Source: Eledone cirrhosa (Eukaryota). From it: a DNA stretch of 64,000 bases. Position 1 is the stretch's first letter, and each line of letters starts with the position of its first letter. Of the stretch, positions 10,628 to 60,432 are shown one piece after another. The stretch is from the NCBI GenBank assembly GCA_964016885.1, contig OZ024764.1, forward strand, positions 25,110,001 to 25,174,000, written 5' to 3'. The notes beneath the pieces were generated by a model. The model was given only the letters and a program-made list of their open reading frames with translations. It did not search any database and was not told the DNA's origin. The position numbers and the translations under genes were made by a program.

Positions 10628-10630
10628 CGA

Positions 10631-11327
10631 TATATGTATACAGACGTACAGTAGTATGTATATCTATATACATACATGCACACACATATATATATGAACG
10701 TATGGATTCACCGAACATTTATTATAATGCTCGGTGTGTTTGTAAACAAACATCCCCAATTGTGCCTGACAGTGTCTCACTGTGTCATTTCCCACTCTTA
10801 GTACGTGTGTATACATATATGTATGTACGTATACATACTTATATTTAAGTAACAGCCGTACTAAGAGTGAGAAATGAAATTTCGTTTCATTTTTCCGTTT
10901 ATCCTTTTCGGTATCCCGGCCGAATAACTCACTCGATATGAAAATTAGGCTGCTCAGCTGTTAATATGCATAAGCAGAGTATATACTTTCAGACGTTCAA
11001 CCATCTGGCAGGAATGTATACGTTGCTGACGATATCTAATAAGCTTGAAACTAGTACATCATTCCTTTGTCAGTGTTGAACAAATGAGCAACGATGGTTG
11101 GTAAACACTGTACGGCTTAATTCGGGATGTTTGTTTACAAATACACCGAGCATTATAATAAATGTTCGGTAAATCCATTCGTACATATATATATATGTGT
11201 GCATGTATGTATATATATATACATACTACTGTACGTCTGTATACATATATGTATGTACGTATACATACTTATATTTAAGTAACAGCCGTACTAAGAGTGA
11301 GAAATGAAATTTCGTTTCATTTTTTCT
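10631..11327 (+). mobile_element. Decayed retrozyme-like element (family C) with inverted arm
   Basis: Contains an HHR-like core, a direct repeat with 430-bp offset (10809/11239) and an inverted arm (10631-10775 vs ~11100-11249). Copy at 37738-38434. Confidence 0.6.
10995..11081 (+). ncRNA. Degenerate type I hammerhead ribozyme
   Basis: CTGACGA-tatct aata agctt-GAAAC TA GTA, inside extended stem I pairings gttcaac/gttgaac, ctggca/tgtcag and ggaat/attcc. Copy at 38102-38188. Confidence 0.65.
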
Positions 11328-11332
11328 GCTTA

Positions 11333-12120
11333 TCTATATATATAAAACTGTGGTTGTCTGTCTGTCTATCGATTTTTGGCACACATCTCCTCTTAGAATC
11401 TCTCACGGAATTGCACCGAAATTGCTATACTTGTACATTGAGCCCTAGCGAAGACATCGGAAAAAAAAATATTTCAAATTGACCCACTCTATGTGACGAA
11501 ATCGAATATAATGTATCGATTTTTGAGCGTAAGTGATCAGTTATTTCCCTTTGTTCTGTTTACATTGAGCGTCTTACGTAAAAAATTACGCTGGCTTTAA
11601 CAGTTGTCGAGCCAGCAAAATACTGACCTGCAAAATTCATCAGTTCGAACACTAAGCTTCCGTTTTGCTTCATTTCCATTTAAAAGCATTTTAAAACAAT
11701 ATTTTTACTTGAAAACAAGTCTATTTAAAGACTACGTAAAACAAGCAAATATTTCGTCGTTAGGCGTGCAGACAGACAGTCGTGCAGAGAGGTGATATAG
11801 GCGTGCAGACAGACATAACTGATAATTTGGTTACGCTAATGTTTTTCTCTGCGTTGCAGTGTTTACATTTTCGATCTTTGTTAATAAATAACCAGTGCAG
11901 TTTCTATCCCCAGAATCCTCTTTTGTTATAACATTCGGGTTATCGTTATGTTTTCTTAACTTCATAAGGCATATTGTTGGTTGAGGGAATATTAATCAAA
12001 AACACCACATGCAAGTCTGCACAGTAGACACTACAGTTTTTAAGCCAAGAAAGAAACTTAACATTGTAACTTTAACACAGCTACTGAGCGACCCCGAGCA
12101 ACGCCGGGCTTTACTGCTAG
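11333..12120 (+). mobile_element. Non-autonomous Helitron
   Basis: A|TC...CTAG|T ends, subterminal hairpin CCCGaGC-aac-GCCGGG shortly before CTAG, no TSD. Confidence 0.85.
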
Positions 12121-38439: not shown

Positions 38440-39370
38440 TCTATATATATAAAACTGTGGTTGTCTGTCTATCTATCGATTTTTGGCACACATCTCCTCT
38501 TAGAATCTCTCACGGAATTGCACTGAAATTGCTATACTTGTACATTGAGCCCTAGCGAAGACATCGGAAAAAAAAATATTTCAAATTGACCCACCCTATG
38601 TGACGAAATCGAATATAATGTATCGATTTTTGAGCGTAAGTGATCAGTTATTTCCCTTTGTTCTGTTTACATTGAGCGTCTTACGTAAAAAATTACGCTG
38701 GCTTTAACAGTTGTCGAGCCAGCAAAATATTGACCTGCAAAATTCATCAGTTCGAACACTAAGCTTCCGTTTTGCTTCATTTCCATTTAAAAGCATTTTA
38801 AAACAATATTTTTACTTGAAAACAAGTCTATTTAAAGACTACGTAAAACAAGCAAATATTTCGTCGTTAGGCGTGCAGACAGACAGTCGTGCAGACAGAC
38901 AGTCGTGCAGACAGACAGTCGTGCAGAGAGGTGATATAGGCGTGCAGACAGACAGTCGTGCAGAGAGGTGATATAGGCGTGCAGACAGATAGTCGTGCAG
39001 AGAGGTGATATAGGCGTGCAGACAGACAGTCGTGCAGAGAGGTGATATAGGCGTGCAGACAGACATAACTGATAATTTGGTTACGTTAATGTTTTTCTCT
39101 GCGTTGCAGTGTTTACATTTTCGATCTTTGTTAATAAATAACCAGTGCAGTTTCTATCCCCAGCATCCTCTTTTGTTATAACATTCGGGTTATCGTTATG
39201 TTTTCTTAACTTCATAAGGCATATTGTTGGTTGAGGGAATATTAATCATAAACACCACATGCAAGTCTGCACAGTAGACACTACAGTTTTTAAGCCAAGA
39301 AAGAAACTTAACATTGTAACTTTAACACAGCTACTGAGCGACCCCGAGCAACGCCGGGCTTTACTGCTAG
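38440..39370 (+). mobile_element. Non-autonomous Helitron with expanded internal VNTR
   Basis: Paralog of 11333-12120 with extra 37-bp and 16-bp units at 38870-39065. Confidence 0.85.
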
Positions 39371-39609
39371 TATATATATATAGTAAGGTGTATTATTAGT
39401 TGTGTAAAACGGTCCAATAAATTTTTGTTACCAATATTAAGTTCTCCACGCTTTTGTATATCTCCAATTCCATTCAAGGGAACAGCTAGATGATGTAAAA
39501 CGGAGTATTTCTATCAAAATGAAAATCCGAAGGCAAGGTAAAATTTCCAATCATTTTAATCCCGTCGTGATTAAAATGATTGGAAATTTTACCCTCCCTT
39601 CGGATTTTC

Positions 39610-39669
<60 letters not shown>

Positions 39670-40267
39670 GAAAGTATAGAAATTATTGTGAGCGTGAAGC
39701 CAACAGCATTTCATAATATAAGTGACTATAACGTCAGAATGGAAAATAATTAACGTAAGATGTGGGAAAAATAATTCAAACTAAATAAAAAAAAAATCAA
39801 GACAGATTTATCCATAGAATTTTGTGAAATCCAGGGAAAAATCAATAGAGCCTTAACTCTGAATAAAATAAAGTTTAAATACTCATCCTTCAATTTGGAA
39901 AAACTTCAAACGCTCTATATAGTCTTAAAAAGACTATTTCACGAAACTTTCAGTGGGGATGGTGACGGTTGGAACCGTTCATCAGTAGAGCTCAACATGG
40001 TAACCCTAAACCACTGCCAGAATATGCTAAAAAGTTGACATTTGGAGCCTAAAAATATCTCTTCAAAACCAGGGGTCGGCTTGTCTGCTAAATATAGTAT
40101 GTTAACCTTTACCACTGAGGGGTAACAGTGAAACTGCCGGCCAAACACTTGTTGTACACCACTTACCATAACTCTAGCAACCCACCACATTTATTTCTAC
40201 TGAATCTCATATTTGTTAAGACTAACGGAGAGATTATAGTAATATCAATGTCTTACTGTAGCTTATA

Positions 40268-41943
40268 GTGTAGGTTACCATAGGGTAGGTTACTGTAGGG
40301 TAGGATACCGTAGGGTAGGTTACTGTAGGGTAGGGTACCGTAAGGTAGGTTACCATAGGGTAGGTTACTGGAGGCTAGGATACCGTAGGGTAGGTTACTG
40401 TAGGGTAGGGTACCGTAAGGTAGGTTACCATAGGGTAGGTTACTGGAGGCTAGGATACCGTAGGGTAGGTTACTGTAGGGTAGGTTACCATAGGGTAGGT
40501 TACTGGAGGCTAGGATACCGTAGGGTAGGTTACCATAGGGTAGGTTACCATAGGGTAGGTTACCATAGGGTAGGTTACTGTAGGGTAGGTTACTGTAGGC
40601 TAGGATACCGTAGGGTAGGTTACTGTAGGGTAGGGTACCGTAAGGTAGGTTACCATAGGGTAGGTTACTGGAGGCTAGGATACCGTAGGGTAAGTTACCA
40701 TAGGGTAGGTTACCATAGGGTAGGTTACGGTAGGGTAGGTTACTGTAGGCTAGGATACCGTAGGGTAGGTTACTGTAGGGTAGGGTACCGTAAGGTAGGT
40801 TACCATAGGGTAGGTTACTGGAGTCTAGGATACCGTAGGGTAAGTTACCATAGGGTAGGTTACCATAGGGTAGGTTACTGTAGGGTAGGTTACTGTAGGG
40901 TAGGTTACCATAGGGTAGGTTACTGGAGGCTAGGATACCGTATGGTAGTTACTGTAGGGTAGGGTACCGTAAGGTAGGTTACCTTCGGGTAGGTTACTGG
41001 AGGCTAGGATACCGTATGGTAGTTACTGTAGGGTAGGGTACCGTAAGGTAGGTTACCTTAGGGTAGGTTACTGGAGGCTAGGATACCGTAGGGTAGGTTA
41101 CCATAGGGTAGGTTACCATAGGGTAGGTTACCATAGGGTAGGTTACTGTAGGGTAGGTTACTGTAGGGTAGGTTACCCTAGGGTAGGTTACTGGAGGCTA
41201 GGATACCGTATGGTAGTTACTGTAGGGTAGGGTACCGTAAGGTAGGTTACCATATGGTAGGTTACCATAGGGTAGGTTAGCATGGGGTAGGTTACTGTAG
41301 GGTAGGTTACTGTAGGGTAGGTTACCATAGGGTAGGTTACTGTAGGCTAGGTTACCATAGGGTAGGTTACCATAAGGTAGGTTAGCATAGGCTAGGTTAC
41401 TGTAGGGTAGGTTACTGTAGGGTATGTTACTGTAGGGTAGGTTACCATAGGGTAGGTTACTGTAGGCTAGGATAACGTATGGTAGGTTACTGTAGGGTAG
41501 GGTACCGTAAGGTAGGTTACCTTAGGATAGGTTACCATAGGGTAGGTTACTGTAGGGTAGGTTACTCTAGGGTAGGTTACTGTAGGGTAGGTTACCATAG
41601 GGTAGGTTACTGTAGGCTAGGATACCGTATGGTAGGTTACTGTAGGGCAGGGTACCGTAAGGTAGGTTACCATAGGGTAGGTTACCATAGGGTAGGTTAC
41701 TTTAAGGTAGGTTACTGTAGGCTAGGTTATTGTAGGCTAGGTTACTCTAGGGTTGTTTACCATAGGGTAGGTTATCATAGTGTAGGTTACCATAGGGTAG
41801 GTTTCTGGAGGGTAGGTTATTATAGGGTAGGTTATTATAGGGTAGGTTACCATAGGGTAGGTTACCATATGTAGGTTGCAATAGGGTAGGTTACTGGAGG
41901 GTAGGTTATCATAGGGTACGTTAACATAGGGTAGGTTAACATA
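40268..41943 (+). repeat. 15-bp G-rich minisatellite, truncated at a duplication breakpoint
   Basis: Same unit; abuts RTE 3' sequence at 41944. Confidence 0.95.
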
Positions 41944-42130
41944 CTGCACTCAGTGCTCCTGTGGGAGCCCCTACATGGACACACTAGAAGAGGAAGACCA
42001 AGGTTAACGTATGTTGATGCCCTAAGGACAGACAATGGTCTGTTGGAGATGCAGGACATGGCAGCGATAATGAGGGACAGAGACCGCTGGAGAGAATTCG
42101 TCCATGGATCTCGGGAATTTTACCCGCCTT

Positions 42131-42191
<61 letters not shown>

Positions 42192-43137
42192 AATCTATCT
42201 ATATAACATAGACACCTAAGTGCCTGAAGCTTAGGTTACAAATTTGATCCCTCTTACAATCTGGAGATATGCTCAATATTGGGCCTTGAAACCTTAAGTC
42301 CCCTTTGTTCTGTGTATGAACAGAAATAAATAATGTAATATATATATATGTATGTATGTGTATCAATTTATATATTTAACTATATTTTTCTCATCACAGG
42401 AAACAATTTTGTAGCTGGTTTGCTGAACACAAGTGTTTAGGGTAAGTGTTATCTTAACACACTGTCTAACCATTGTTTAATCTGCTCCTTCCACAACCTC
42501 TCCCTTTATACACACAGACACATATACATATGTATACACACACACACATATATATACACCTATATATATATATGTATACAGACACACACATATATATATA
42601 TATATACACATATATATATATACACATATATACATCTATATAAACACACATATATATATACACATATATATATATACATATATACAAGCGAGACACGGCC
42701 TGCCGACCAATCTCGCCTTAAGTGGGACAAAACCGTCCAACCCATGCTGGCGTGGAAGATGGACTTTAAATGATGATGATATATACACACTGACACATAT
42801 TATACATATATATATACACATATATATACGCATATATATATATATATAAAAACAAATAACGAAACGAAATTAAATTTCGTTTCGCTTCTAACTCACTTTT
42901 GTATGACTGACGCTTAAACAATTAAGTTAAAGTGTACATCTACATATGTATACGGAAGTATTAGTATGCATATAAATACACACATGTATACATATGTACA
43001 TGTACTCAGCTTTTCACTAGACACTTTACAGTGAGTGTCAGCTAGTCTGTATGTAACCACACAGGCGGACCGGGTTTTAGAGTCATACGAGTTTTCAAGG
43101 AAACACATTTCCTCTATTCTCCAGAGGGCCAGACAGG

Positions 43138-43182
43138 AATATTGGACTAGTTTCGATGTTATTACATCTCATCAGCAATATT
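43138..43182 (-). ncRNA. Type I hammerhead ribozyme (inverted arm)
   Basis: Reverse complement reads aatattg CTGATGA gatgt aata acatc GAAAC TA GTC caatatt. Confidence 0.9.
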
Positions 43183-43466
43183 TACCTATCTTCCGGCTTC
43201 ATATACATATGTAGATGTACACTTCCGTATACATATGTAGATGTACACTTTAACTTAATTGTTTAAGCGTCAGTCATACAAAAGTGAGTTAGAAGCGAAA
43301 CGAAATTTAATTTCGTTTCGTTATTTGTTTTTATCGTTTCCGCTGAACCGGTGCGTACAATGACTCACGTTCTATGCAAATTAGTCTACCCACTACTAAT
43401 TTTCATAGAAAAAGCATATAACGATATGTGCTTTTACAATTCTCCAGAGAAGCCGGAAGATGGGTA

Positions 43467-43511
43467 AATATTGCTGATGAGATGTAATAACATCGAAACT
43501 AGTCCAATATT
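43467..43511 (+). ncRNA. Type I hammerhead ribozyme; predicted cleavage after C43504
   Basis: aatattg CTGATGA gatgt aata acatc GAAAC TA GTC caatatt; stem I extends over 43440-43532. Confidence 0.93.
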
Positions 43512-43935
43512 CCTGTCTGGCCCTCTGGAGAATAGAGGAAATGTGTTTCCTTGAAAACTCGTATGACTCTAAAACCCGGTCCGCCTGTGTGGTTACATAC
43601 AGACTAGCTGACACTCACTGTAAAGTGTCTAGTGAAAAGCTGAGTACATGTACATATGTATACATGTGTGTATTTATATGCATACTAATACTTCCGTATA
43701 CATATGTAGATGTACACTTTAACTTAATTGTTTAAGCGTCAGTCATACAAAAGTGAGTTAGAAGCGAAACGAAATTTAATTTCGTTTCGTTATTTGCTTT
43801 TATCGTTTCCGCTGAACCCGTGCGTACAATGACTCACGTTCTATGCAAATTAGTCTACCCACTAATAATTTTCATAGAAAAAGCATATAACGATATGTGC
43901 TTTTACAATTCTCCAGAGAAGCCGGAAGATGGGTA

Positions 43936-43980
43936 AATATTGCTGATGAGATGTAATAACATCGAAACTAGTCCAATATT
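43936..43980 (+). ncRNA. Type I hammerhead ribozyme
   Basis: Identical motif, +469 bp. Confidence 0.93.
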
Positions 43981-44404
43981 CCTGTCTGGCCCTCTGGAGA
44001 ATAGAGGAAATGTGTTTCCTTGAAAACTCGTATGACTCTAAAACCCGGTCCGCCTGTGTGGTTACATACAGACTAGCTGACACTCACTGTAAAGTGTCTA
44101 GTGAAAAGCTGAGTACATGTACATATGTATACATGTGTGTATTTATATGCATACTAATACTTCCGTATACATATGTAGATGTACACTTTAACTTAATTGT
44201 TTAAGCGTCAGTCATACAAAAGTGAGTTAGAAGCGAAACGAAATTTAATTTCGTTTCGTTATTTGTTTTTATCGTTTCCGCTGAACCTGTGCGTACAATG
44301 ACTCACGTTCTATGCAAATTAGTCTACCCACTAATAATTTTCATAGAAAAAGCATATAACGATATGTGCTTTTACAATTCTCCAGAGAAGCTGGAAGATG
44401 GGTA

Positions 44405-44449
44405 AATATTGCTGATGAGATGTAATAACATCGAAACTAGTCCAATATT
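44405..44449 (+). ncRNA. Type I hammerhead ribozyme
   Basis: Identical motif, +938 bp. Confidence 0.93.
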
Positions 44450-44873
44450 CCTGTCTGGCCCTCTGGAGAATAGAGGAAATGTGTTTCCTTGAAAACTCGT
44501 ATGACTCTAAAACCCGGTCCGCCTGTGTGGTTACATACAGACTAGCTGACACTCACTGTAAAGTGTCTAGTGAAAAGCTGAGTACATGTACATATGTATA
44601 CATGTGTGTATTTATATGCATACTAATACTTCCGTATACATATGTAGATGTACACTTTAACTTAATTGTTTAAGCGTCAGTCATACAAAAGTGAGTTAGA
44701 AGCGAAACGAAATTTAATTTCGTTTCGTTATTTGTTTTTATCGTTTCCGCTGAACCGGTGCGTACAATGACTCACGTTCTATGCAAATTAGTCTACCCAC
44801 TACTAATTTTCATAGAAAAAGCATATAACGATATGTGCTTTTACAATTCTCCAGAGAAGCCGGAAGATGGGTA

Positions 44874-44918
44874 AATATTGCTGATGAGATGTAATAACAT
44901 CGAAACTAGTCCAATATT
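44874..44918 (+). ncRNA. Type I hammerhead ribozyme
   Basis: Identical motif, +1407 bp. Confidence 0.93.
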
Positions 44919-45143
44919 CCTGTCTGGCCCTCTGGAGAATAGAGGAAATGTGTTTCCTTGAAAACTCGTATGACTCTAAAACCCGGTCCGCCTGTGTGGT
45001 TACATACAGACTAGCTGACACTCACTGTAAAGTGTCTAGTGAAAAGCTGAGTACATGTACATATGTATACATGTGTGTATTTATATGCATACTAATACTT
45101 CCGTATACATATGTAGATGTACACTTTAACTTAATTGTTTATA

Positions 45144-45195
<52 letters not shown>

Positions 45196-45199
<4 letters not shown>

Positions 45200-45709
45200 A
45201 AAGAATAGAGGTGTAACACACAAGTTATTATATATTGATAAACGGAATAGAAAATGCTGACAAATTGTTCAGTTGAAAAATGGTTTAATTAGGAATAAAA
45301 GAGTATTAGTGATTGTAAACACACATGCTCTATGGTGCAATACAAAGAAATATATGTGCATATATATGTATGTATATATGTATATATATATATATATATG
45401 TAGTGGATATATGTATGTGTGTATGTGTATATAGTGAATATCATTTCACACCATTTATTGTTAAGATTTTTGATGTTCTATTAAGAGAACCGATTTTACT
45501 GAAAAAATCGAATAATGTACACCATTTTACCAGGGGGAAAAAAATACTGGTCCACCCACCCACACACACACACACACATATACACAAACACATACACATG
45601 CGTACATCAACATACTAAGAGACTTATACACACACACACACACACACACACGCACTTCTCCGTATAAGAGAAAAGCTGAAAAATATCTTTTGACCTTCGA
45701 ATGACTCTG

Positions 45710-45783
<74 letters not shown>

Positions 45784-45854
45784 ATCTTAATAGCCATTTG
45801 ACACACATCGCTGCTGGCCATTGTCGCAGTATCGAACACCTTACTACTACTACT

Positions 45855-45940
<86 letters not shown>

Positions 45941-46426
45941 ACACACACACACGTATTTGTTGTGAAAGAGTCATTTCTCAATCTTGGCGCAAAACCAATT
46001 TTTTATCCACATGACCTCTACCGACCAATCAAAATTGTTTTGACCAAGAATTTTTGCTGGAGCCACTTTTTTAACATAAAAACAGTCTTGGCGCAAAATC
46101 AACTTTTTACATTCACATGACCTCTACCGACCAATCAAAATTGTTTTGACCACAAGCATTTTTGCAACACAAAAATAGCGCTGGAGCCACTTTTTTAACA
46201 TAAAAACAGGTAGAATTCCCAAAACTAATCAGATCAGAGCAAACAGCACGGACACTCTATCTCAAAATTATTTTTGAAAAGCATTTAGAAATGCGCAACC
46301 GGTAAAAACTTAAAAACTTAAAACCACAACTGAATACTAACCCATACAATCACTAATACTCTTTTATTCCTAATTAAACCATTTTTCAACTGTGAACAAT
46401 TTGTCAGCATTTTCTATTCCGTTTAT

Positions 46427-46430
<4 letters not shown>
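45196..46430 (+). mobile_element. PLE 3' UTR/pLTR remnant with two outward-facing 3' ends
   Basis: 45196-45316 equals 54869-54989; 45317-46430 is the reverse complement of ~54907-55980. Confidence 0.85.
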
Positions 46431-46491
<61 letters not shown>

Positions 46492-46639
46492 TATATATAT
46501 ATATATACATATATATACATATATATATATATGAGTTCAAATCTGCCGAGGTTAACTTTGCCTTTTATCCTTACGGGGTCGATAAAATAAAGTACCAGTA
46601 ATGTACTGGGTAATTGATGCCAAAAGTAGAAACAATTAT

Positions 46640-46930
46640 TTGTCTAAGCAGACAGTACTTGATTTAGGAGTTGCAGAAAGACAATACAGGATATTACCAA
46701 CCTTCCAGGGGTCCGGGTATAATTTTCAATCATATTTTATTTGTTTGACCCGAATTACTTGGTCGTTTCGATGGCTGTGCGGATAATGGTTTAACCATCG
46801 TCTCAGTGTGTTTTGCCTTTTAACTTATGTTGATGCTCTAGTTCACTAGCTTCTATGGAGCGCTTGCCACACATCTCGGAAGTTGTTTTTCGCTAATTTC
46901 CAATAGCAGAAATACGATTCTCGCTAAATT
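46640..46930 (-). repeat. Partial member of the ~617-bp family
   Basis: Reverse complement begins aaatttagcgagaatc like 61980 and stays colinear for ~290 bp. Confidence 0.75.
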
Positions 46931-46949
46931 TATATATATATATATACGT

Positions 46950-47285
46950 ATAAGGGATAACAAAATATCGTTATAGGTAATCCAGGTAGAGGTTGTGAAT
47001 ACTCTGTATTGTGGTTAGTCTTAGTCTACGGCGTTGTTTGACTCGACAAGAGGTTTCCGTAGGTGGCAAGTATTTGAGTTCTCTTGAATTCCTATGTAAG
47101 TTTATCTTGGAGTAATAATATTGAAAGAGTGAAGAATAACATGGTCAACAGTACAAAAAGAGGTTTTATTTACAGTATTAACAATTGTTTCACTGATTAA
47201 GTTGTCTAAAAATTGCTGAACACTTGAAGCTGTGCCACTCAATTTTAAATATGTTGTTAGCTTAACCAGATCATCACAATATTTA
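46950..47285 (-). mobile_element. PLE pLTR end with mutated HHR core
   Basis: Near-identical to 63193-63525, but the core reads GTGATGA. Confidence 0.7.
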
Positions 47286-47291
47286 TATATT

Positions 47292-47363
<72 letters not shown>

Positions 47364-47479
47364 TGAAGTTCATCAAGGCTCTGAGCTTAGCCCCCTCTTA
47401 TTTATTATTGCCCTTCAGGCTATAACAGAGGAGTTCAAGACCGGTTGCCATGGGAACTCCTACACGACCTCATTTATTT

Positions 47480-49075
47480 AGGACTGGATGTTGTGGTACC
47501 AACAAACATAACTTTACATCGGTGGTGTGGATGGGGTGGTAGTGGTGGGGCGGGGGTATTTTTTGGTAAGAGGTGCCTACTAACTGTAGGTTTCGCTTTG
47601 CACTTAGGCAAGGCGGGTCTTCTATATGACTGCGTAGCGCCAAAGATCTTCGTCCAGTGACCTTGTCTTGGAGAGGTGTAAGTGTGTGAGGTCGGAATTT
47701 ATCAAGTCGTCCCAGGTTTTTCTGGGTCTGCCTACTTCGTGGCTACCATCTATTTTTATTGCCCTGCACTTTTTTATACAGCTGTCGTCTTTCATGCGCA
47801 TCACGTGACCATACCAATGTAGCCTTCTCTCGAGTAAACAGCATCTGATCCTTCTTATTCCTAATTTCTCCCTTAGTTCATTTATGCTTTGCCGTTCACG
47901 TATATTACTATTACACATCCAACGGAGCCTGCAAGCTTCGTTCCTCTCTAGTCTGCGTCGATCCTCTGCACACAATGACCCAGTCTCACTTCCATGTAAC
48001 ATTACTGTTCGTATGCAGGCATCATACAGCCTGCCTTTCATTTTTAGAGAGAAACCTTTAGCGGCTAATAGTGGTATAAGCTCTCTGAACTTTTTCCATC
48101 CCGTTCTGACTCTAGCTACAGTACTTTCAGCACACCCTCCCCACCTGCTGATTTTGTCACCCAGGTAACGGAAGGTGTCCACTATTTCTATAGAACCATC
48201 TGTGCAATGGAATCGGCTAGTATTCTGTGGGCACTTGCTGCTACTTATTGCACCTGAGCACCGGCCACATATAAAATCTATATTCTTAGTTAGCTTACCT
48301 GTGATCCCACTACATCTTTTATGAACCCATACTTTGCATTTGGGACATAAAATGGAGTTTCTGCCTACTCCGTTCCTACACACTGAGCATGGCCATTCCC
48401 CAGATGGGACCAGTGCCCTATTTTCCTTCCTACATACTAGAACTTTAGTCTTAGACAGGTTAATTTTAAGGCCTTTTGATTCTAGGCCATGCTTCCATGT
48501 TTGGAATTTCTTCTCTAGTTCGACCATTGATTCAGCTATAAGCGTTAGATCATCAGCGTATAGGAGTTCCCATGGGCAGCCGGTCTTGAACTCCTCTGTT
48601 ATAGCCTGAATGGCAATAATAAATAGGAGGGGCCTAAGGACGGAGCCCTGATGAACACCAACTTTTACGCTAAACTCATCACTATATTCGTTGTTAATTC
48701 TAACCTTGCTGACTGTTTCTTTATACATGGCTTGTATAGCTCTCACAAGCCATTCATCAACACCTAGTTTTCTGAGAGCCCACCAGATAGTGGGGCGTGG
48801 GACTCTGTCAAAGGCTTTCTCCAGGTCTACAAAAGCTAAGTAGAGGGGTTTACATTTAGCTAGGTACTTCTGTAGTTGTCATACAATGAAAAGAGCGTCT
48901 GTGGTACTTTTACCTGACACAAACCCGAACTGCATTTCATCCAGATCAATTCGCTCTCTGACTAGTTGTGCTATTACTTTTTCTGTGACCCTCATGACCT
49001 GGTCAATTAATTTAATGCCACTATAGTTTCCTCTATCTAGGCAATCTCCTTTACCCCTGTAGCAGTTAATGATGA
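47480..49075 (-). mobile_element. 5'-truncated RTE-clade LINE (RT domain and C-terminus)
   Basis: ORF 47622-48746 has GVHQGSVL and LYADD; FVDLEKAFD and QFGF lie upstream. Short opposite-strand RT fragment at 47360-47465. Confidence 0.92.
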
Positions 49076-49152
49076 TGATATATATATAAAAGAAATAGGA
49101 TATATATATATATAAAAGAAATAGGATTTCGCTTCAAGCATATCATTATACA

Positions 49153-49481
49153 ATATGTATAAATATTTTGTATCTCCAAAGAAATACGGTTTTAGGAAGC
49201 CATAGCTCTGCAAACCCTGGGAGGGTTAACGTCCTCTGGTGATGTCCAGCAGAAGATAGGGGGAAAACCGTATATGCATTCAGGCTTAACTGGCCATCGT
49301 CAGAACGGTCCCTCCCACTGCTTGCAACTGCTGGCCAATTAAGCATGAAATGCATAAACGGTTGTCCCCCTTGATTCTGCTGGACATCACCAGAGGGCGT
49401 TAACCCTGCCCTCCCCGTGTTTGCATAGCTACGGCTTCCTAAAACCGTATTTCTTTGGAGATACGAAATATTTATACATAT
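49153..49481. mobile_element. Fold-back element made of two opposed HHR-bearing termini
   Basis: Imperfect arms of ~140 bp. Left arm minus strand reads ccgtt CTGACGA tggc..gcct GAATGCATA; right arm has GAAATGCATA aacgg. Confidence 0.7.
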
Positions 49482-49489
49482 ATATATAT

Positions 49490-52400
49490 ATCCTCAGTCC
49501 ATCCAATCTCTCTCTCTTCTGTCTCTCCAGACAGAGCACTGAACCCGTTCCTCGCTTCCACTGTGAACCTCTCCTGTAGCTTATCATTTTCCTTGAAAAC
49601 TCCACAGTCATAGATTTCTCTCCGGGGCTGAGCCTTTCTCTTTCTTAAGCTCACGCGGACCTCACTCATAACAAGCCGGTGGTCACTACCCAGTGTACTG
49701 AAATAGTTGTATGGTTCTGTGTTCAGAACACTATTCCGCCACTTTTTCCTCACCAGAATGAAATTAATCTGGGACTTGGACTCTTCCTAAACCTTAGGTT
49801 GGTCGCCATCAAGTTCGCCTCCAGCAGGGTGTCTCTCAGTAGTCTTCCATTTCGGTTGGTGTTGTTATGGAAGTACCAGCAAGGATCTTCACTGCCCTCC
49901 TTACTCAGATGTGCATTGAAGTCCCCCAAAACAAGCAGGATATTGTGTGCTTGAGTGGTGTTGACAGCTCTACACACCTCCTCATGGAACTCTTCCGCAC
50001 TCACATCACTGTCCCCCTCAGTTGGACTATAGGCTGAGATGACTGTCAGTCTTGGGTTTCCATTGAAGGTCATCCTCAACACTCGCGGGGAGACAGGCAT
50101 TATTTCCCTCACCAATAGACTGGTTTTTGTGCTGAAAACAAAACCCACTCCTCCTACTGCAGCATTTGTTGTGTTCTTCACTGCCGATGTAGTGATGAGA
50201 TGGCTCCTCTTCCCGATCATCACACTCCTCACGGGCTCATCGTGTAGGATCCTGTGTTCTTGGATCGCAAGTATCTGTATACCACTCTCCTCGAACAGAT
50301 GTCCCAACTCCCCTCTCTTCTCCAGCGTCCGAATAGTCCTCACATTCAAAGTGCCCATTTTGATGGCTCTTCTGCAGGACAAACCTGCATTCTTTATATT
50401 TGTCTCAGAGACAGCTGATCCATCATCCACTGGCCCTCCCTGTGGCTCTAAGCCAGCAGAGTCATAACGACCAGAGTGCTCCTTGACAGTGTAATTAGGG
50501 GCTCTAACCCTAGTGCTGTTAGATCGACTCTCCATATTTCTTTTCAATGGCTGACAATACCTTACCGGCGCCACTCGAATAAGGTAGTGACGAGGAGGTA
50601 CGGGCACTTCACCAATGCAGTGGCGGAAGCAAGTGAAACCCTGGTGCCGAGGAAAAAGAACAAAAGGAAGCACGTCAGCTCTGCAAACCCAAAAGTGTGT
50701 GCAGCCAGAGAACACCTGAAAGCTGCCAGAGACCAATTCTATGCTGATCCTACGGAGGAGACGATGGAGACTGTGGAGGTGATGAGGGAAGAACTCTGTA
50801 CCGCTTACACTGAGGCCAGAGAGGAGGCACTGATAGAGAAGATCAGAAGTGTGGAGAGAGCTGTTGACAGATCTGGATGTAAGGAGAGCTGGATGATCAT
50901 CAACGAGATCACAGGGAGGAAGAGAAGGTGTTCGAGTCAGATCCAGGGAATGGGGCCTGAGGATAGGAAGAGGAAATGGCTAGACCATTTTAGGACCCTA
51001 CTAGGAGAGCCACCCTTCACAGCCCGGAGCACTGGGGAGATCAGGCGGCTGTTTGAGGAACTGGATATTGAGATAGAGCCCTTCACCAGAGAGGAGCTTC
51101 AGAGAGCCAAGAAGAGGATCAAGGAGGGCAAGGCTCATGGAGAAGATGGAGTGGCATCAGAGGTGATGAAGAGGTGTGATTTTGATGATATCATCCTGGG
51201 GTTCTGTAATCGGGCACTGGAGAAAGGAGTTGCCCCGAATCAGTGGAGGATCAGTAACATCGTCCCAGTGCCAAAGAAGGGAGATCTCTCTAACACCAAC
51301 AACTACAGGGGGATCTCACTGACGTCACTTGTGGCAAAGACCTTCAACAGGATGATTCTTGATTCTTAACAGGATCCAGCCTGAGATGGAGAAGAAGCTC
51401 AGGGACAACCAGAACGGCTTCAGAGAGGGAAGATCAACCACCAGTCACATACTGATGCTGAGGATGATATTAGAGGGAGCTAGAGCAAAGTGCCTTCCTG
51501 CAGTCATGGTTTTCATTGACTTTAGGAATGCCTTTGATTCTGTGGACCATCACTGCTCTACACCAACACCAAAGCCCAAGTCATTACACCTGATGGCATG
51601 ACAGAGTTCTTTGAGATACTGGCTGGAGTGCTCCAGGGAGATACATTGGCTCCCTACCTTTTTATCATCGTAGTGGACTATTGTATGCGCCTTGCACTGG
51701 AGAAACACCAGGACTCTGGCTTTACTGTAGCACCGGCTCAGAGCAGGAGAGTTAAGGCGAAAAAGGTATCGGATGCTGAATTTGCCGACGACATAGTTTT
51801 GGTGACAGATACAGTGAAGGAGGCAGAGGATTTGATGCAGGAAGTTGAGACTGTGTCGATGAGTGTGGGGCTGAGAATGAATGAGACTAAAACAAAATAT
51901 CTGGTAGAGAATGTTGAGAAGCAAGAGGAGATCACTAATGTAGGCGGGAAGCCGCTAAAATTGGTTGAGGGCTTCCTGTATTTGAGAGCAAAGATTGGGA
52001 ATACAGAAGATGATGTGGTTGAGAGGAAGAGCAAAGCCTGGGCGGCGTGTCCCAGCTTGAGATCGGTGTGGAAGTCGGACCTTCGTAAAGACCTGAAAAT
52101 CTGCCTCTTCATTGCTGTAGTGGAGTCTGTGCTGCTGTACGGGTTTGAGACTTGGACACTGACCAAGAAACTCACTCAGATGGTGGATGGGTGCTACACG
52201 AGAATGCTGAGGATGGCTCTGAACATTAATCAGTATACACTGAGGATGAAAAACTCAGAGCTGTATGGGAGCATCCCAAAAGTCAGCTCAAAAGTGACAC
52301 AGAGGAGACTGAGGTTAGCTGGACATGCTCACCGACATCCAGAGTTGACATTGCACTCAGTGCTCCTGTGGGAGCCCCTACATGGACACACTAGAAGAGG

Positions 52401-52537
52401 AAGACCAAGGTTAACGTATGTTGATGCCCTAAGGACAGACACTGGTCTGTTGGAGATGCAGGACATGGCAGCGATAATGAGGGACAGAGACCGCTGGAGA
52501 GAATTCGTCCATGGATCTCGGGAATTTTACCCGCCTT

Positions 52538-52539
<2 letters not shown>
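49490..52539 (+). mobile_element. Near full-length RTE-clade LINE with inverted 5' third (APE on -, RT on +)
   Basis: Minus strand has GTLNVRT, IQEHR, GDFNAH and SDH. Plus strand has NYRGISL, QNGFR, GVLQGDTLAP and FADD. Junction at ~50586; frameshifts near 51360 and 51555. Confidence 0.93.
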
Positions 52540-52594
<55 letters not shown>

Positions 52595-53229
52595 AATCTA
52601 TCTATATAACATAGACACCTAAGTGCCTGAAGCTTAGGTTACAAATTTGATCCCTCTTACAATCTGGAGATATGCTCAATATTGGGCCTTGAAACCTTAA
52701 GTCCCCTTTGTTCTGTGTATGAACAGAAATAAATAATGTAATATATATATATGTATGTATGTGTATCAATTTATATATTTAACTATATTTTTCTCATCAC
52801 AGGAAACAATGTTGTAGCTGGTTTGCTGAACACAAGTGTTTAGGGTAAGTGTTATCTTAACACACTGTCTAACCATTGTTTAATCTGCTCCTTCCACAAC
52901 CTCTCCCTTTATACACACAGACACATATACATATGTATACACACACACACATATATATACACCTATATATATATATGTATACAGACACACACATATATAT
53001 ATATATACACATATATATATATACACATATATACATCTATATAAACACACATATATATATACACATATATATATATACATATATACAAGCGAGACACGGC
53101 TTGCCGACCAATCTCGCCTTAAGTGGGACAAAACCGTCCAACCCATGCTGGCGTGGAAGATGGACTTTAAATGATGATGATATATACACACTGACACATA
53201 TTATACATATATATATACACACATATATA

Positions 53230-53304
<75 letters not shown>

Positions 53305-53527
53305 CAATTAAGTTAAAAATGTACATCTACATATGCATACTGAAATACTAGTGTGTATATGAATACACACACGTATACATATGCAGATGTAACAAGTCTT
53401 TCACTGGTTGCTTTACCGTGAGCAACTCAGCTATTCTGTATGTAAACACACAGACAAACCGGTTTTTAGAGTCATACAGGTTTTCGAGGAAACATCTTCC
53501 CTCTATTCTCCAGAAAGCCAGACAAGG

Positions 53528-53572
53528 AATATTGAACTAGTTTCGTTGTTGTTACAACTCATCAGCAATATT
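53528..53572 (-). ncRNA. Type I hammerhead ribozyme (GUU cleavage triplet)
   Basis: Reverse complement reads aatattg CTGATGA gttgt aaca acaac GAAAC TA GTT caatatt. Confidence 0.92.
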
Positions 53573-53994
53573 TACCTATCTACCGGCCTTTCTGGAGAAT
53601 TGTAAAAGCACATATCGTTATATGCTTTTTCTATGAAAATTAGTAGTGGGCAGACTAATTTGCATAGAGTGTGAGTACGCACCGGTTCAGCGGAGACGAT
53701 AAAAACAAATAACGAAACGAAATTAAATTTCGTTTCGTTTGTAACTCACTTTTGTATGACTGACGCTTAAACAATTAAGTTAAAAATGTACATCTACATA
53801 TGCATACTGAAATACTAGTGTGTATATGAATACACACACGTATACATATGCAGATGTAACAAGTCTTTCACTGGTTGCTTTACCGTGAGCAACTCAGCTA
53901 TTCTGTATGTAAACACACAGACAAACCGGTTTTTAGAGTCATACAGGTTTTCGAGGAAACATCTTCCCTCTATTCTCCAGAAAGCCAGACAAGG

Positions 53995-54039
53995 AATATT
54001 GAACTAGTTTCGTTGTTGTTACAACTCATCAGCAATATT
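53995..54039 (-). ncRNA. Type I hammerhead ribozyme
   Basis: Identical motif, +467 bp. Confidence 0.92.
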
Positions 54040-54461
54040 TACCTATCTACCGGCCTTTCTGGAGAATTGTAAAAGCACATATCGTTATATGCTTTTTCTA
54101 TGAAAATTAGTAGTGGGCAGACTAATTTGCATAGAGTGTGAGTACGCACCGGTTCAGCGGAGACGATAAAAACAAATAACGAAACGAAATTAAATTTCGT
54201 TTCGTTTGTAACTCACTTTTGTATGACTGACGCTTAAACAATTAAGTTAAAAATGTACATCTACATATGCATACTGAAATACTAGTGTGTATATGAATAC
54301 ACACACGTATACATATGCAGATGTAACAAGTCTTTCACTGGTTGCTTTACTGTGAGCAACTCAGCTATTCTGTATGTAAACACACAGACAAACCGGTTTT
54401 TAGAGTCATACTGGTTTTCGAGGAAACATCTTCCCTCTATTCTTCAGAAAGCCAGACAAGG

Positions 54462-54506
54462 AATATTGAACTAGTTTCGTTGTTGTTACAACTCATCAGC
54501 AATATT
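54462..54506 (-). ncRNA. Type I hammerhead ribozyme
   Basis: Identical motif, +934 bp. Confidence 0.92.
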
Positions 54507-54834
54507 TACCTATCTACCGGCCTTTCTGGAGAATTGTAAAAGCACATATCGTTATATGCTTTTTCTATAGAGGGAAGATGTTTCCTCGAAAACCAGTATG
54601 ACTCTAAAAACCGGTTTGTCTGTGTGTTTACATACAGAATAGCTGAGTTGCTCACAGTAAAGCAACCAGTGAAAGACTTGTTACATCTGCATATGTATAC
54701 GTGTGTGTATTCATATACACACTAGTATTTCAGTATGCATATGTAGATGTACATTTTTAACTTAATTGTTTAAGCGTCAGTCATACAAAAGTGAGTTACA
54801 AACGAAACGAAATTTAATTTCGTTTCGTTATTTG

Positions 54835-54868
<34 letters not shown>

Positions 54869-54872
<4 letters not shown>

Positions 54873-55380
54873 AAAGAATAGAGGTGTAACACACAAGTTA
54901 TTATATATTGATAAACGGAATAGAAAATGCTGACAAATTGTTCAGTTGAAAAATGGTTTAATTAGGAATAAAAGAGTATTAGTGATTGTATGGGTTAGTA
55001 TTCAGTTGTGGTTTTAAGTTTTTACCGGTTGCGCATTTCTAAATGCTTTTCAAAAATAATTTTGAGATAGAGTGTCCGTGCTGTTTGCTCTGATCTGATT
55101 AGTTTTGGGAATTCTACCTGTTTTTATGTTAAAAAAGTGGCTCCAGCGCTATTTTTGTGTTGCAAAAATGCTTGTGGTCAAAACAATTTTGATTGGTCGG
55201 TAGAGGTCATGTGAATGTAAAAAGTTGATTTTGCGCCAAGACTGTTTTTATGTTAAAAAAGTGGCTCCAGCAAAAATTCTTGGTCAAAACAATTTTGATT
55301 GGTCGGTAGAGGTCATGTGGATAAAAAATTGGTTTTGCGCCAAGATTGAGAAATGACTCTTTCACAACAAATGTGTGTGT

Positions 55381-55444
<64 letters not shown>

Positions 55445-55515
55445 AGTAGTAGTAGTAAGGTGTTCGATACTGCGACAATGGCCAGCAGCGATGTGTGTCA
55501 AATGGCTATTAAGAT

Positions 55516-55563
<48 letters not shown>

Positions 55564-55885
55564 CAGAGTCATTCGAAGGTCAAAAGATATTTTTCAGCCT
55601 TTGTCTTATACGGAGAAGTGCGTGTGTGTGTGTGTGTATAAGTCTCTTTGTATGTTGATGTACGCGTGTGTATGTGTTTGTGTATATATGTGTGTGTATG
55701 TGTTTGTGTATATGTGTGTGTGTGTGTGTGGGTGGGTGGACCAGTATTTTTTTCCCCCTGGTAAAATGGTGTACATTATTCGATTTTTTCAGTAAAATCG
55801 GTTCTCTTAATAGAACATCAAAAATCTTAACAATAAATGGTGTGAAATGATATTCACTATATACACATACACACATACATATATC

Positions 55886-55924
<39 letters not shown>

Positions 55925-57135
55925 TACATATATATGCACATATATTTCTTTGTATTGCACCATAGAGCATGTGTGTTTACGTGTGTCATTGTGTTTATAT
56001 GTGGGTAGAGATGTGTGTTGATGTAGGTATGTATGTTGACGTGTGTATGTTGTGGGTTCGTCTTAGGGAGAAGTGTTTAGACGGGGTCCGTATTTGTTAA
56101 TGAAGTAAGATTCCTTGCTGATGCGCTGGGCGTGGGTGGCATTATCTTTAAATTTGTAGAGGGGAAAGATTCTGAAGTTGGGATGATTTTGGGCGGCACA
56201 GGTATCAATGTGTTCACTCAGTGGTATTTTCCTGTATTCCGTATTTTAATTTGGGATCTATGGACAGTCATGCGTTGGCGGAGGCTGTTTTTGGTCTGGC
56301 CTATGTATTGTTCTCGACAACCTGAACAAGTTAATACATATATTAGATTTTCCGATGCACATGTGAAGTTGTGTTTTACTATAAAACGTTGTCCATCTTT
56401 GAAATAGAATTCCGAACCCTCTATTAGGTTGATGCAAATGCCACAGTTGGGTCTATCGCATTTTTTTACTGTGGGTTTCGTTGTTGTGGTTGGCAGTACT
56501 TTGGCATGTGTTAAGATGTTTTTCATTGACTTGGATTGTCTTTTGCTCTTTATGATATCGTGTGTTCGTAGAATTTGGCTCATTCTATGGTCCTTTTTCA
56601 ATACAGGTGTCAAAGGCCTCATTGTTGAGGGGTTGTGTGTGGAGATGTATGGAAGAGCTTTTAGTTTTGGTTGATTTACTTTGGGGTGTCTAAGGTCCTG
56701 GGTACTGAGTTTTAGGGCACGTTGGATTCCATTGTCAATTAGTGATGCAGGGTAGTCCCTGCCTATGAGTGTGTCCTTTAGTTCTTGTAGCCGTAAAAAC
56801 AGTCTTGGCGCAAAATCAACTTTTTAAATTCACATGACCTCTACCGACCAATCAAAATTGTTTTGACCACAAGCATTTTTGCAACACAAAAATAACGCTG
56901 GAGCCACTTTTTTAACATAAAAACAGGTAGAATTCCCAAAACTAATCAGATCAGAGCAAACAGCACGGACACTCTATCTCAAAATTATTTTTGAAAAGCA
57001 TTTAGAAATGCGCAACCGGTAAAAACTTAAAAACTTAAAACCACAACTGAATACTAACCCATACAATCACTAATACTCTTTTATTCCTAATTAAACCATT
57101 TTTCAACTGTGAACAGCATTTTCTATTCCGTTTAT

Positions 57136-57138
<3 letters not shown>
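54869..57138 (-). mobile_element. 5'-truncated Neptune-like PLE (GIY-YIG plus 3' UTR) with inverted pLTR arm 56795-57138
   Basis: ORF 56218-56622 has CDRPNCGIC and LIYVLTC..YIGQT. The arm is the reverse complement of ~54907-55250. Confidence 0.88.
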
Positions 57139-57182
<44 letters not shown>

Positions 57183-57212
57183 TATACACACACACATACA
57201 TATATATATATA

Positions 57213-57262
<50 letters not shown>

Positions 57263-57495
57263 TTCAAATCTGCCGAGGTTAACTTTGCCTTTCATCCTTA
57301 CGAGGTCGATAAAATAAAGTACCAGTGGTGTACTGGGGTAATCGCTGGCCTTGTGCCAAAAGTAGAAACTATATTTATATATATATATATATAAGTATTG
57401 AAATTTCCGTTGGAAACAGAAAAGGTCATAGAAGTGAAGAGTGCTCTATTTAAGTATCAGAGCAAAATTTAATGTATAAAAATCAATACAATATA

Positions 57496-57573
57496 ATTAC
57501 CTCATTACCAGAGGTTTCCCGAATGAGGCGAATACGAAATAAACGTCTTCATTCGTTCGTCAGACGAGGCAAT
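57496..57573 (-). ncRNA. Type I hammerhead ribozyme (inverted pLTR arm)
   Basis: Reverse complement reads attgcctcgt CTGACGA a cgaatga..tcattcg g GAAAC CTCTG GTA atgaggtaat. Confidence 0.82.
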
Positions 57574-57773
57574 ATAAAACATGGGTAAATACTTAGAAAA
57601 AATCATCTATTACTCAGACCCTTTTAGTGAAAGCTTTAAATTTCGCTAGAGGGTTCACTAATATCTCCGATATTGAGGAGAATGTCATCTTGCATTCTAG
57701 GAACACTCTACTTTTTAATGATAATGACACTTGGGTAAAAATATCTAACCCATAGAACCCATTTGATGTCTCA

Positions 57774-58922: not shown

Positions 58923-59356
58923 CTCATATAAACTTAACACACTTTCAGATACTTATCCTCCATAAACTCTTATTATTCTCTTTTTAATTACCCTTTCTGA
59001 CTTACTTTCTTTTTTATCCTTGTCAATAATTTCATTTATTTTAATTTTTATTTTTACTTCCCATCCACCCCCCCCCCTTTATTCTCCGATTCACTTTCCA
59101 TTTTTTACTTTCCCTTCTTTTACTTCCCTTTTTCCTCCACTAACTGATTACACTTGTCTTTTGTGTTTTTCATCCAGATATATTTTCCATTTTTATTTTT
59201 ATTTTTTATTTTTGCGCAGCCAATCTTACAATTTTATATTTGTACTTACTTATCCACAAGTTTTTTACACCCTGTATCAATATGGCTGAACGCCTTAATG
59301 TGTGTATACTTTTATATATGTACATGAGTGACTACGTATGTGCGCGCGCGTGCGTG

Positions 59357-59415
<59 letters not shown>

Positions 59416-60280: not shown

Positions 60281-60302
60281 TATATTGTATTGATTTTTAT
60301 AC

Positions 60303-60344
<42 letters not shown>

Positions 60345-60432
60345 AAAGTTTTATTTAAAATTGTTGGGTTACAACAAGTAAATATTATATAACCGATATA
60401 AAGCACTCGACAAGTTTTTGGAGTAGATATAC

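What the first reader, a model, noticed from the sequence alone, without database searches (positions are those of the whole stretch)
42847..54840. Two different arrays occupy the same paralogous (TA)n site in opposite orientations
Seen: the ~900 bp left of each array is nearly identical, and both arrays are followed by (TA)n GTTAAAAGAATAGAGG. Yet array A is mainly plus-strand, array B is mainly minus-strand, and their monomers differ far more than the flanks. Inference: independent insertion into a hotspot, or whole-cassette inversion through self-complementary (TA)n followed by conversion. The distal SINE copies differ more than the left flanks, so the duplication age is uncertain.
Basis: partly seen in the sequence, partly recalled or inferred. 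Interest (0 to 1): 0.75.

Follow-up and report, generated by a model that had tools for sequence, protein, structure and literature searches.

The report
Ribozyme repeats inserted twice at microsatellite
The two repeat arrays are related mobile elements that each carry a hammerhead-ribozyme motif and most likely landed separately, in opposite directions, in two copies of one recently duplicated TA microsatellite; this is a known kind of element whose ends hint at which retrotransposon moves it.

Summary
In detail: the shared flanks differ at 6 of 1,296 columns (0.46%), the repeat units by 11-12%, and the long parts face opposite ways. Each full 469-bp (A) or 467-bp (B) unit holds a type I hammerhead motif (8 Rfam HH9 hits below the gathering score; 8 descriptor hits, 0 in 30 shuffles). 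The units fold strongly (z about -10), and A/B differences spare base pairs. These are non-LTR retrozyme-type arrays. Each is a long tandem plus a short inverted arm, and both end at the same two unit positions 69 nt apart: the inverted copy and 'tail' described for Penelope-like elements (PLEs), which favour (TA)n. Internal junctions differ and neither array has tracts of the other subfamily, so inversion plus conversion is not supported. The right flank is itself a PLE 3' end, and the SINE body probably lies outside the duplication. Best reading: two separate PLE-driven insertions (0.55). DNA-level swap at (TA)n and mis-assembly stay open. Known kind; interest 0.4.

The parts
41945..42832 (+). 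Left flank of locus A: 3' end of an RTE-type LINE (41945-42132, cut short and joined to the 15-mer satellite with 2 bp of overlap), a (TA)n tract, then unique and microsatellite sequence
   Evidence: 826 matches, 4 substitutions against 52352-53232; junction
42832..42848 (.). (TA)n tract left of array A (17 nt)
42848..43200 (-). Array A short inverted arm, 353 bp: unit positions 186-469 plus the 69-nt tail; one hammerhead motif (core starts at 43175)
43201..43220 (+). About 20 nt copied from the neighbouring unit end, at the inversion junction of array A
43221..45139 (+). Array A long part: a 43-bp partial unit plus four 469-bp units; hammerhead cores at 43474, 43943, 44412, 44881; predicted cuts after 43504, 43973, 44442, 44911
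45140..45195 (.). (TA)n tract right of array A (56 nt)
45196..46428 (.). Element C at locus A: fold-back 3' end of a Neptune-like PLE; 122-bp forward arm, then about 1.1 kb inverted; its two ends are 40 nt apart in element coordinates
46533..46640 (+). 5'-truncated SINE; first 33 nt identical to the copy at 57260, body different (probable right end of the duplication)
50560..53232 (+). Left flank of locus B with the longer RTE-type LINE (RT ORF 51538-52539; start coordinate approximate); the duplicated part starts at 52352
53233..53303 (.). (TA)n tract left of array B (71 nt)
53303..54568 (-). Array B long part: two identical 467-bp units plus a 332-bp partial unit; hammerhead cores at 53565, 54032, 54499
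54567..54839 (+). Array B short inverted arm, 273 bp: unit positions 264-467 plus the 69-nt tail; no hammerhead; shares 2 of 2 diagnostic variants with the adjacent partial unit
54839..54868 (.). (TA)n tract right of array B (30 nt)
54869..57137 (.). Element C at locus B: 5'-truncated Neptune-like PLE (ORF piece 56218-56823 on the minus strand with CX4CxxC linker and a weak GIY-YIG match), about 1.9-kb forward arm plus 344-bp inverted arm
57260..57369 (+). 5'-truncated SINE at locus B
10630..11335 (+). Element D: distant family member (62% over 512 columns, E 2.5e-28), 430-bp period, inverted arm, hammerhead core with broken stem II; second copy at about 37737-38440, fragment at 29273-29535
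   Evidence: no Rfam hammerhead hit

Best explanation
Arrays A and B are two subfamilies of one non-autonomous, hammerhead-bearing retroelement (non-LTR retrozyme type) that is moved by the reverse transcriptase and GIY-YIG endonuclease of Penelope-like elements. Shown here: hammerhead motif in every full unit, conserved single-strand structure, long tandem plus inverted arm, two fixed end sites 69 nt apart, (TA)n on both sides, separate junctions, no mosaicism. Inferred: the array is transcribed and self-cleaves (probably as a dimer); the PLE protein nicks a (TA)n tract; reverse transcription starts at the inner site and copies several units; the other target end is joined at the outer site, by second priming or by fold-back of the cDNA, which gives the inverted arm with the tail; the two pieces join at short microhomology. 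Because (TA)n is self-complementary, orientation is free. The segment from the LINE end to the SINE was duplicated recently (0.46% divergence), B being the older copy. The paralogous (TA)n next to element C then received an insertion at each copy, or B was already present, was skipped during duplication, and A entered the empty site later.
For: Rfam HH9 aligns over model positions 1-77 of 77 with no non-standard pair flagged; 8 hits at 31.8-38.6 bits, E 3e-6 to 5e-4. Strict descriptor: 8 hits, all in A or B, 0 in each of 30 shuffles. One stem II pair changes on both sides between A and B. Fold z -9.9 and -10.7. A/B substitutions break 5 of 141 and 7 of 120 confident pairs against 16.5 and 15.5 expected (0 and 6 of 5,000 relocations). 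The hammerhead strand folds better than its complement by 17 and 31 kcal/mol. Both arrays use the inner site for the long part and the outer site for the arm. PLEs show inverted 5' copies, a tail and (TA)n bias (PMC8557442), and a purified PLE extends both target strands from two adjacent internal RNA sites (PMC11167929). Neptune-like and Hydra-like PLEs in this window show the same anatomy with tails of 40 and 77 nt. By my manual count 12 of 18 (TA)n tracts between 42832 and 63181 sit at the end of an inverted arm or repeated segment. Private changes inside the arrays (4 in 2,272 bp; 1-3 in 1,539 bp) fit an age near the duplication (expected 5.3 and 3.6).
Against: All Rfam scores are below the gathering cut-off of 52, and the 8 hits are copies of two sequences. 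Double-sided compensatory changes are not in excess (2 vs 0.98 expected, P 0.26; 1 vs 0.91, P 0.61). The tail (69 nt) is longer than the published 30-40 bp. No PLE end in the window is homologous to the unit (the two scores above shuffles, against a Hydra-like UTR, are low and were not inspected), so the helper is unidentified. No target-site duplication can be read in (TA)n. Two related insertions at paralogous sites within a short time is a coincidence that a general (TA)n bias only partly explains. The region is a patchwork of near-identical segments often joined at (TA)n, which keeps DNA-level routes open. Eight of nine Xenopus retrozymes did not cleave in vitro (10.64898/2026.07.22.740005), so activity cannot be assumed.
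Confidence: 0.55

Rival explanations
1. Both arrays are retrozyme insertions, but one was copied in at DNA level from a donor locus by template switching or gap repair between (TA)n tracts, for example while locus A was being duplicated from B.
For: Locus A already shows several switches: satellite to LINE (2-bp overlap), an inversion inside element C (3-bp overlap), and SINE to another SINE. A nearby 336-bp segment after a (TA)n tract is 334 of 335 identical to one at 63192. Larger duplications at 0.3-3% divergence fill the window.
Against: No second copy of either junction in the window. Switching by (TA)n alone carries the same coincidence as independent insertion. Homology-led repair should leave B-type sequence or the B end layout at locus A, and none is seen.
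Confidence: 0.22
2. Assembly artefact: a mis-join at (TA)n, or two haplotypes or other loci stitched in tandem.
For: Long (TA)n tracts and fold-back arrays are hard to assemble (PMC8557442); 0.46% divergence could be allelic (inference); no reads were available.
Against: No N in the window. Both loci carry private substitutions, indels and unique junctions, and are flanked by unrelated sequence on both sides. Each array is internally coherent, arm with tandem.
Confidence: 0.12
3. One ancestral cassette was duplicated, flipped through the self-complementary (TA)n tracts, and then converted or homogenised to another subfamily.
For: The end layout of A is the mirror image of B. Element C did undergo an internal rearrangement between the loci.
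Against: A flip keeps the internal junction, yet the junction positions differ. 11-12% divergence cannot arise while flanks diverge 0.46%. No B-type residue remains in A (0 of 75 windows). Full replacement through both ends is the donor-swap rival, not inversion.
Confidence: 0.04
4. The arrays are a DNA element (fold-back or MITE type with terminal inverted repeats, or a Helitron-linked tandem repeat), and the hammerhead is incidental.
For: Inverted ends, many hairpins and TA targets are features of some DNA elements (recalled, not tested against a library).
Against: The two ends are different unit positions, arm lengths and junctions vary, and the arms are made of the unit itself. The hammerhead core is intact in both subfamilies and in element D. 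Folding favours one strand.
Confidence: 0.07

Closest known systems
Metazoan non-LTR retrozymes (Cervera and de la Pena 2020, PMC7229834; Li et al. preprint 10.64898/2026.07.22.740005)
   Same: Short tandem units with a type I hammerhead in each unit, weak palindromic helix III, GC below 45-50% (36-37%), no LTR layout, stable predicted fold, PLEs in the same genome.
   Different: Units are 467-469 bp, just above the 150-450 bp range of the 2020 paper and inside the 51-972 bp range of the preprint. In the main texts searched, inverted arms and a tail are not described for retrozymes ('inverted' 0 times in PMC7229834; once, in a reference title, and 'tail' 0 times in the preprint). Units within an array share variants in blocks, which pure rolling-circle copying of one monomer does not predict.
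Penelope-like elements with endonuclease: Neptune, Hydra, Poseidon clades (PMC8557442; PMC11167929; PMC4209133)
   Same: Partial tandems, inverted truncated copy, tail at one end, hammerhead, (TA)n or AT-rich targets, two start sites.
   Different: No ORF; tail of 69 nt instead of 30-40 bp; hammerhead closer to the canonical form than to the minimal pLTR type; no homology to PLE ends in the window.
Non-autonomous Chlamys PLEs such as MRC1 (PMC8557442, passage)
   Same: Non-coding PLE dependants with multicopy head-to-tail insertions.
   Different: Those generally resemble their helper at the 3' end and come from a clade that mostly lacks hammerheads; here a hammerhead is present and no helper match was found.
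Twin-primed 5' inversions of LINEs (recalled)
   Same: An inverted arm joined to the main copy at microhomology.
   Different: Here the arm starts at a fixed site 3' of the main start and overlaps sequence already copied; in B it shares variants with the adjacent unit, which suggests fold-back.

Membership tests
Non-LTR retrozyme | Tandem units of a few hundred bp | tested here: met
   469 bp x4.1 and 467 bp x2.7; slightly above the 150-450 bp range, inside 51-972 bp
Non-LTR retrozyme | Complete type I hammerhead in at least two consecutive units | tested here: met
   4 consecutive in A, 3 in B; Rfam scores below gathering
Non-LTR retrozyme | Low GC, no coding capacity, no LTR layout | tested here: met
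   GC 0.37 and 0.36; no ORF of 100 aa wholly inside either array; PBS and PPT were not searched for separately
Non-LTR retrozyme | Stable, highly self-paired RNA fold | tested here: met
   z -9.9 and -10.7; substitutions spare pairs
Non-LTR retrozyme | Self-cleavage and expression as linear and circular monomers | not testable with these tools
   needs transcription assay and RNA data
Non-LTR retrozyme | Target-site duplication when present | tested here: inconclusive
   both sides are (TA)n of unequal length
Non-autonomous PLE derivative | Inverted truncated copy adjoining the main body | tested here: met
   arms of 353 and 273 bp
Non-autonomous PLE derivative | Tail of 30-40 bp at one end, from two start sites | tested here: inconclusive
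   a tail at one end is present in both arrays but is 69 nt; tails of 40 and 77 nt occur in coding PLEs of this window
Non-autonomous PLE derivative | Microsatellite (TA)n target | tested here: met
   4 of 4 ends of A and B abut (TA)n
Non-autonomous PLE derivative | Homology to the pLTR or 3' end of an autonomous PLE | tested here: inconclusive
   none convincing among five PLE end regions in the window; the rest of the genome could not be searched
Autonomous PLE | RT plus GIY-YIG ORF | tested here: not met
   no ORF in the arrays; such ORFs lie in neighbouring elements
TIR or fold-back DNA transposon (MITE) | Same terminus at both ends and a fixed internal structure | tested here: not met
   ends differ by 69 nt; arm lengths and junctions differ

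The most novel reading that the evidence does not exclude
These arrays record the insertion chemistry of animal retrozymes directly: a PLE protein starts on the retrozyme RNA at two fixed internal sites 69 nt apart, just around a conserved hairpin, and produces a tandem plus a fold-back arm in (TA)n, with a preference for tracts that adjoin an existing PLE 3' end. That would explain two independent hits at paralogous sites. It would be junction-level evidence for PLE-driven retrozyme movement, which the papers read here infer from co-occurrence and phylogeny, and would point to heterogeneous multimeric RNA rather than a single circle as the template.
Probability: 0.3. Interest if true: 0.62.

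Novelty: new member of a known kind. Interest (0 to 1): 0.4.

Why it matters
Retrozymes are known, and PLEs are their proposed helpers, but one review states that metazoan retrozyme repeats show no conserved motif that identifies the helper (PMC7761336). Two insertions from subfamilies 11-12% apart that use identical end sites and carry the PLE-type inverted arm and tail give a concrete, testable signature, and a defined RNA substrate for the in vitro PLE assay of PMC11167929. No cephalopod retrozyme study surfaced in the searches run, although hammerhead matches were counted in the giant squid genome. Practically, it warns that (TA)n tracts in such genomes are re-used landing sites, so shared insertion sites can mislead. 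The double occupancy alone is a curiosity.

Tried and rejected
Rfam over the whole window: the microRNA and snoRNA hits on AT-rich hairpins were set aside as composition matches; 150 of 226 rows were shown. Rfam on element D found no hammerhead, and the strict descriptor missed it because stem II is broken. No strict hammerhead was found at the ends of element C or the PLE at 23010; a CTGACAA-type near-core there points antisense to the ORF and was not accepted. Homology of the unit to five PLE end regions of the window: nothing convincing. Excess of two-sided compensatory changes: not found. Mosaic tracts between subfamilies: none. Second copies of six junctions in the window: none. The SINE test used provisional counts and is replaced. 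The shuffles permute two-letter blocks and are cruder than true dinucleotide shuffles. Pfam gave no hit for 2 of 8 proteins, including the Hydra-like ORF at 57756; its clade label rests on the CxCX5C motif only. Literature searches on parallel insertion and twin priming gave nothing relevant. No eukaryotic DNA collection was available, so copy number, donor loci and helper family stayed unchecked; the metagenome and viral collections were not searched, and the bacterial, phage and plasmid collections were not used as irrelevant. Supplements of the cited papers were not read and may show similar junctions.
Full report
Setting. The window is eukaryotic repeat-rich DNA without N. The nearest named relatives of a PLE protein at 25272-26582 come from Argonauta hians (60-61% identity) and Octopus bimaculoides (75% over 60% of the query), so an octopod host is likely but not shown. 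It holds 15-mer satellites, RTE-type LINEs, SINEs, several PLEs and 42 merged (TA)n tracts.

The observation. A segment from a LINE 3' end to a truncated SINE occurs twice, at about 41945-46565 and 52352-57292. The left flanks differ at 4 of 830 columns, the first 122 bp right of the arrays at 0, and the distal 344 columns of the right-hand element at 2: 6 of 1,296. The units of array A (469 bp) and array B (467 bp) differ by 11-12%. The long parts lie on opposite strands.

What the units are. Each full unit carries a type I hammerhead motif: stem I of 7 bp, core CTGATGA, stem II, GAAA, a palindromic CTAG helix III and a TC (A) or TT (B) cut site. A strict descriptor found 8 motifs in the window, all in A or B, and none in 30 shuffles. 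Rfam HH9 matches the same 8 places at 31.8-38.6 bits, below its gathering score of 52; the alignment for B covers the whole model with no non-standard pair flagged. One stem II pair changes on both sides between A and B. The hammerhead strand folds far better than shuffles (z -9.9, -10.7) and better than its complement. Substitutions between A and B break 5 of 141 pairs of the A structure and 7 of 120 of the B structure, against about 16 expected; two-sided changes are not in excess. This fits the published definition of non-LTR retrozymes (PMC7229834: passages, part 2 of 6 and Discussion; preprint 10.64898/2026.07.22.740005: parts 1-3 of 5 and passages). A weak palindromic helix III favours cleavage as a dimer (PMC4209133, part 1 of 4); the modelled intermolecular helix is about -6 kcal/mol. 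Activity is untested.

Anatomy. Numbering the unit from the base after the long part's 3' end, both long parts end at the last unit position (site b) and both inverted arms end at position 69 (site a), 12 nt after a 25-nt hairpin. The unit continues with TA at both sites, giving 2-3 bases of overlap with the tract. A: arm = positions 186-469 plus 1-69, about 20 copied bases, then 427-469 and four units. B: long part from position 136, arm from 264; both sides of the junction fall on the same 5-mer ATAGA with 2 bases of overlap. An inverted truncated copy, a tail at one end and (TA)n bias are described for PLEs (PMC8557442, passages only). A purified Poseidon protein nicks AT-rich DNA, extends both strands and starts at two adjacent internal RNA sites whose spacing is the tail (PMC11167929, parts 1-2 of 4). 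Coding PLEs in the window behave alike: the Hydra-like element at 57395-60304 (CxCX5C motif) has a 136-bp inverted arm, a 77-nt tail on the arm and (TA)n at both ends; the Neptune-like element C (CX4CxxC motif) has ends 40 nt apart. A third, distant family member (D, 10630-11335; 62%, E 2.5e-28) also has an inverted arm and ends after the homologous hairpin at a short TA run, but its long part carries the tail.

Variation inside the arrays. In A, units 1 and 4 are identical; units 2 and 3 share a change at 133 and both differ at 87. In B, units 1 and 2 are identical; the partial unit differs at 3 sites and the arm shares both that it covers. One homogeneous circle copied repeatedly would not give shared blocks. 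A heterogeneous multimer template, fold-back of the cDNA for arm B, or later local exchange would (inference; few sites). Private changes fit an age about equal to the duplication or younger.

The right flank and the SINE. GTTAAAAGAATAGAGG is the end of element C, a PLE 3' end also present at 23010 in a variant copy (about 7% divergent) with no array beside it. The forward arms at A and B share a 2-bp deletion absent from the inverted arms, so C was one insertion before the duplication. It now has a 122-bp forward arm and 1.1-kb inverted arm at A, and a 1.9-kb forward arm and 344-bp inverted arm at B. The SINEs match for 33 nt and then differ (p 0.004 against the flanks); the A body agrees with another window copy at sites where B differs. 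The duplication therefore probably ends inside the SINE. At the left, A's LINE is cut and fused to satellite while B's is longer, so B is the older copy.

How the two arrays got there. Inversion plus conversion fails on different junctions, arm-to-tandem identity and the absence of mosaic tracts (0 of 75 and 0 of 50 windows). Separate insertion is simplest: (TA)n tracts here are heavily re-used (12 of 18 tracts from 42832 to 63181 mark an element end, my manual count), orientation in (TA)n is free, and recently active PLE families are reported in Octopus vulgaris (PMC13282606, part 1 of 3, passages and supplement list only). I give it 0.55. Against it stands the coincidence of two related subfamilies at paralogous sites. 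A DNA-level swap from a donor through (TA)n (0.22) fits the patchwork character of the region but has no donor in the window. Mis-assembly (0.12) cannot be excluded without reads. Confidence that the arrays are retrozyme-type elements, whatever the route, is about 0.9.

Novelty. The element class is known. Searches for octopus or cephalopod together with hammerhead, Penelope or retrozyme and for inverted or twin-primed retrozyme junctions returned no description of this family or of this junction anatomy in retrozymes; the library is limited to open papers and supplements were not read. The giant squid paper counts 235 hammerhead matches (PMC6962438, passage). A review notes that no motif identifies the helper of animal retrozymes (PMC7761336, passages). 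The fixed two-site, inverted-arm signature is the most useful new observation. Verdict: new member of a known kind, interest 0.4.

Noticed in passing
10630-11335; 37737-38440; 29273-29535: Distant relative of the array unit (430-bp period, degenerate hammerhead, inverted arm) inserted directly at the 3' end of the same RTE-type LINE family that flanks loci A and B.
   Followed up: partly
57395-60304: Hydra-like PLE (ORF 57756-58922, CxCX5C motif) with a hammerhead core with long stem II, 136-bp inverted arm, 77-nt tail and (TA)n on both sides.
   Followed up: partly
23010-27394 (minus strand); copy at 1-1070: Neptune-like PLE with RT-region and GIY-YIG ORFs, a frameshift near 26500-26580, and a (TA)n tract plus a 267-bp piece of a related element interrupting the ORF.
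   Followed up: partly
20320-22315: Second Hydra-like PLE (CxCX5C motif, frameshifted ORF) ending in a 96-nt (TA)n tract.
   Followed up: partly
26327-41943 vs 1-18000: Patchwork duplication at 0.3-3% divergence, with several segment ends at (TA)n tracts or SINEs.
   Followed up: partly
3085-6731, 16124-18077, 30258-33904, 40266-41938: Four arrays of a strand-biased 15-mer satellite rich in TAGGG; locus A is fused to the end of the last one.
   Followed up: no
49750-52539: RTE-type LINE whose endonuclease part is on the minus strand and RT part on the plus strand, i.e. a 5' inversion; the LINE at 47359-49060 also has an inverted 109-bp piece.
   Followed up: no
49154-49477: Imperfect 324-bp palindrome (82%) between TA runs, preceded by a 26-bp direct duplication; no hammerhead found.
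   Followed up: no
22412-22990, 46640-46930, 61981-62696: Old dispersed family (62-74% identity, about 620-bp period at 62 kb) bounded by (TA)n; one copy occupies the site next to the PLE end at 23010 that corresponds to the array site.
   Followed up: partly
46949-47284 vs 63192-63526: Near-identical 336-bp segment (334 of 335) starting after a (TA)n tract; the 63-kb copy continues into a 35-bp inverted arm.
   Followed up: partly
12712 and 39985 (minus strand): A different hammerhead-like motif with long stems II and III, present in both copies of a duplicated segment.
   Followed up: no
42189-42400 vs 2125-2510: The left flank resembles a segment present four more times in the window, where a SINE interrupts it; loci A and B hold the empty form (seen by eye).
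   Followed up: no
60342-61927; 12268-12362 and 39518-39612: Further fold-back segments next to (TA)n (60-bp arms; a 95-bp hairpin).
   Followed up: no
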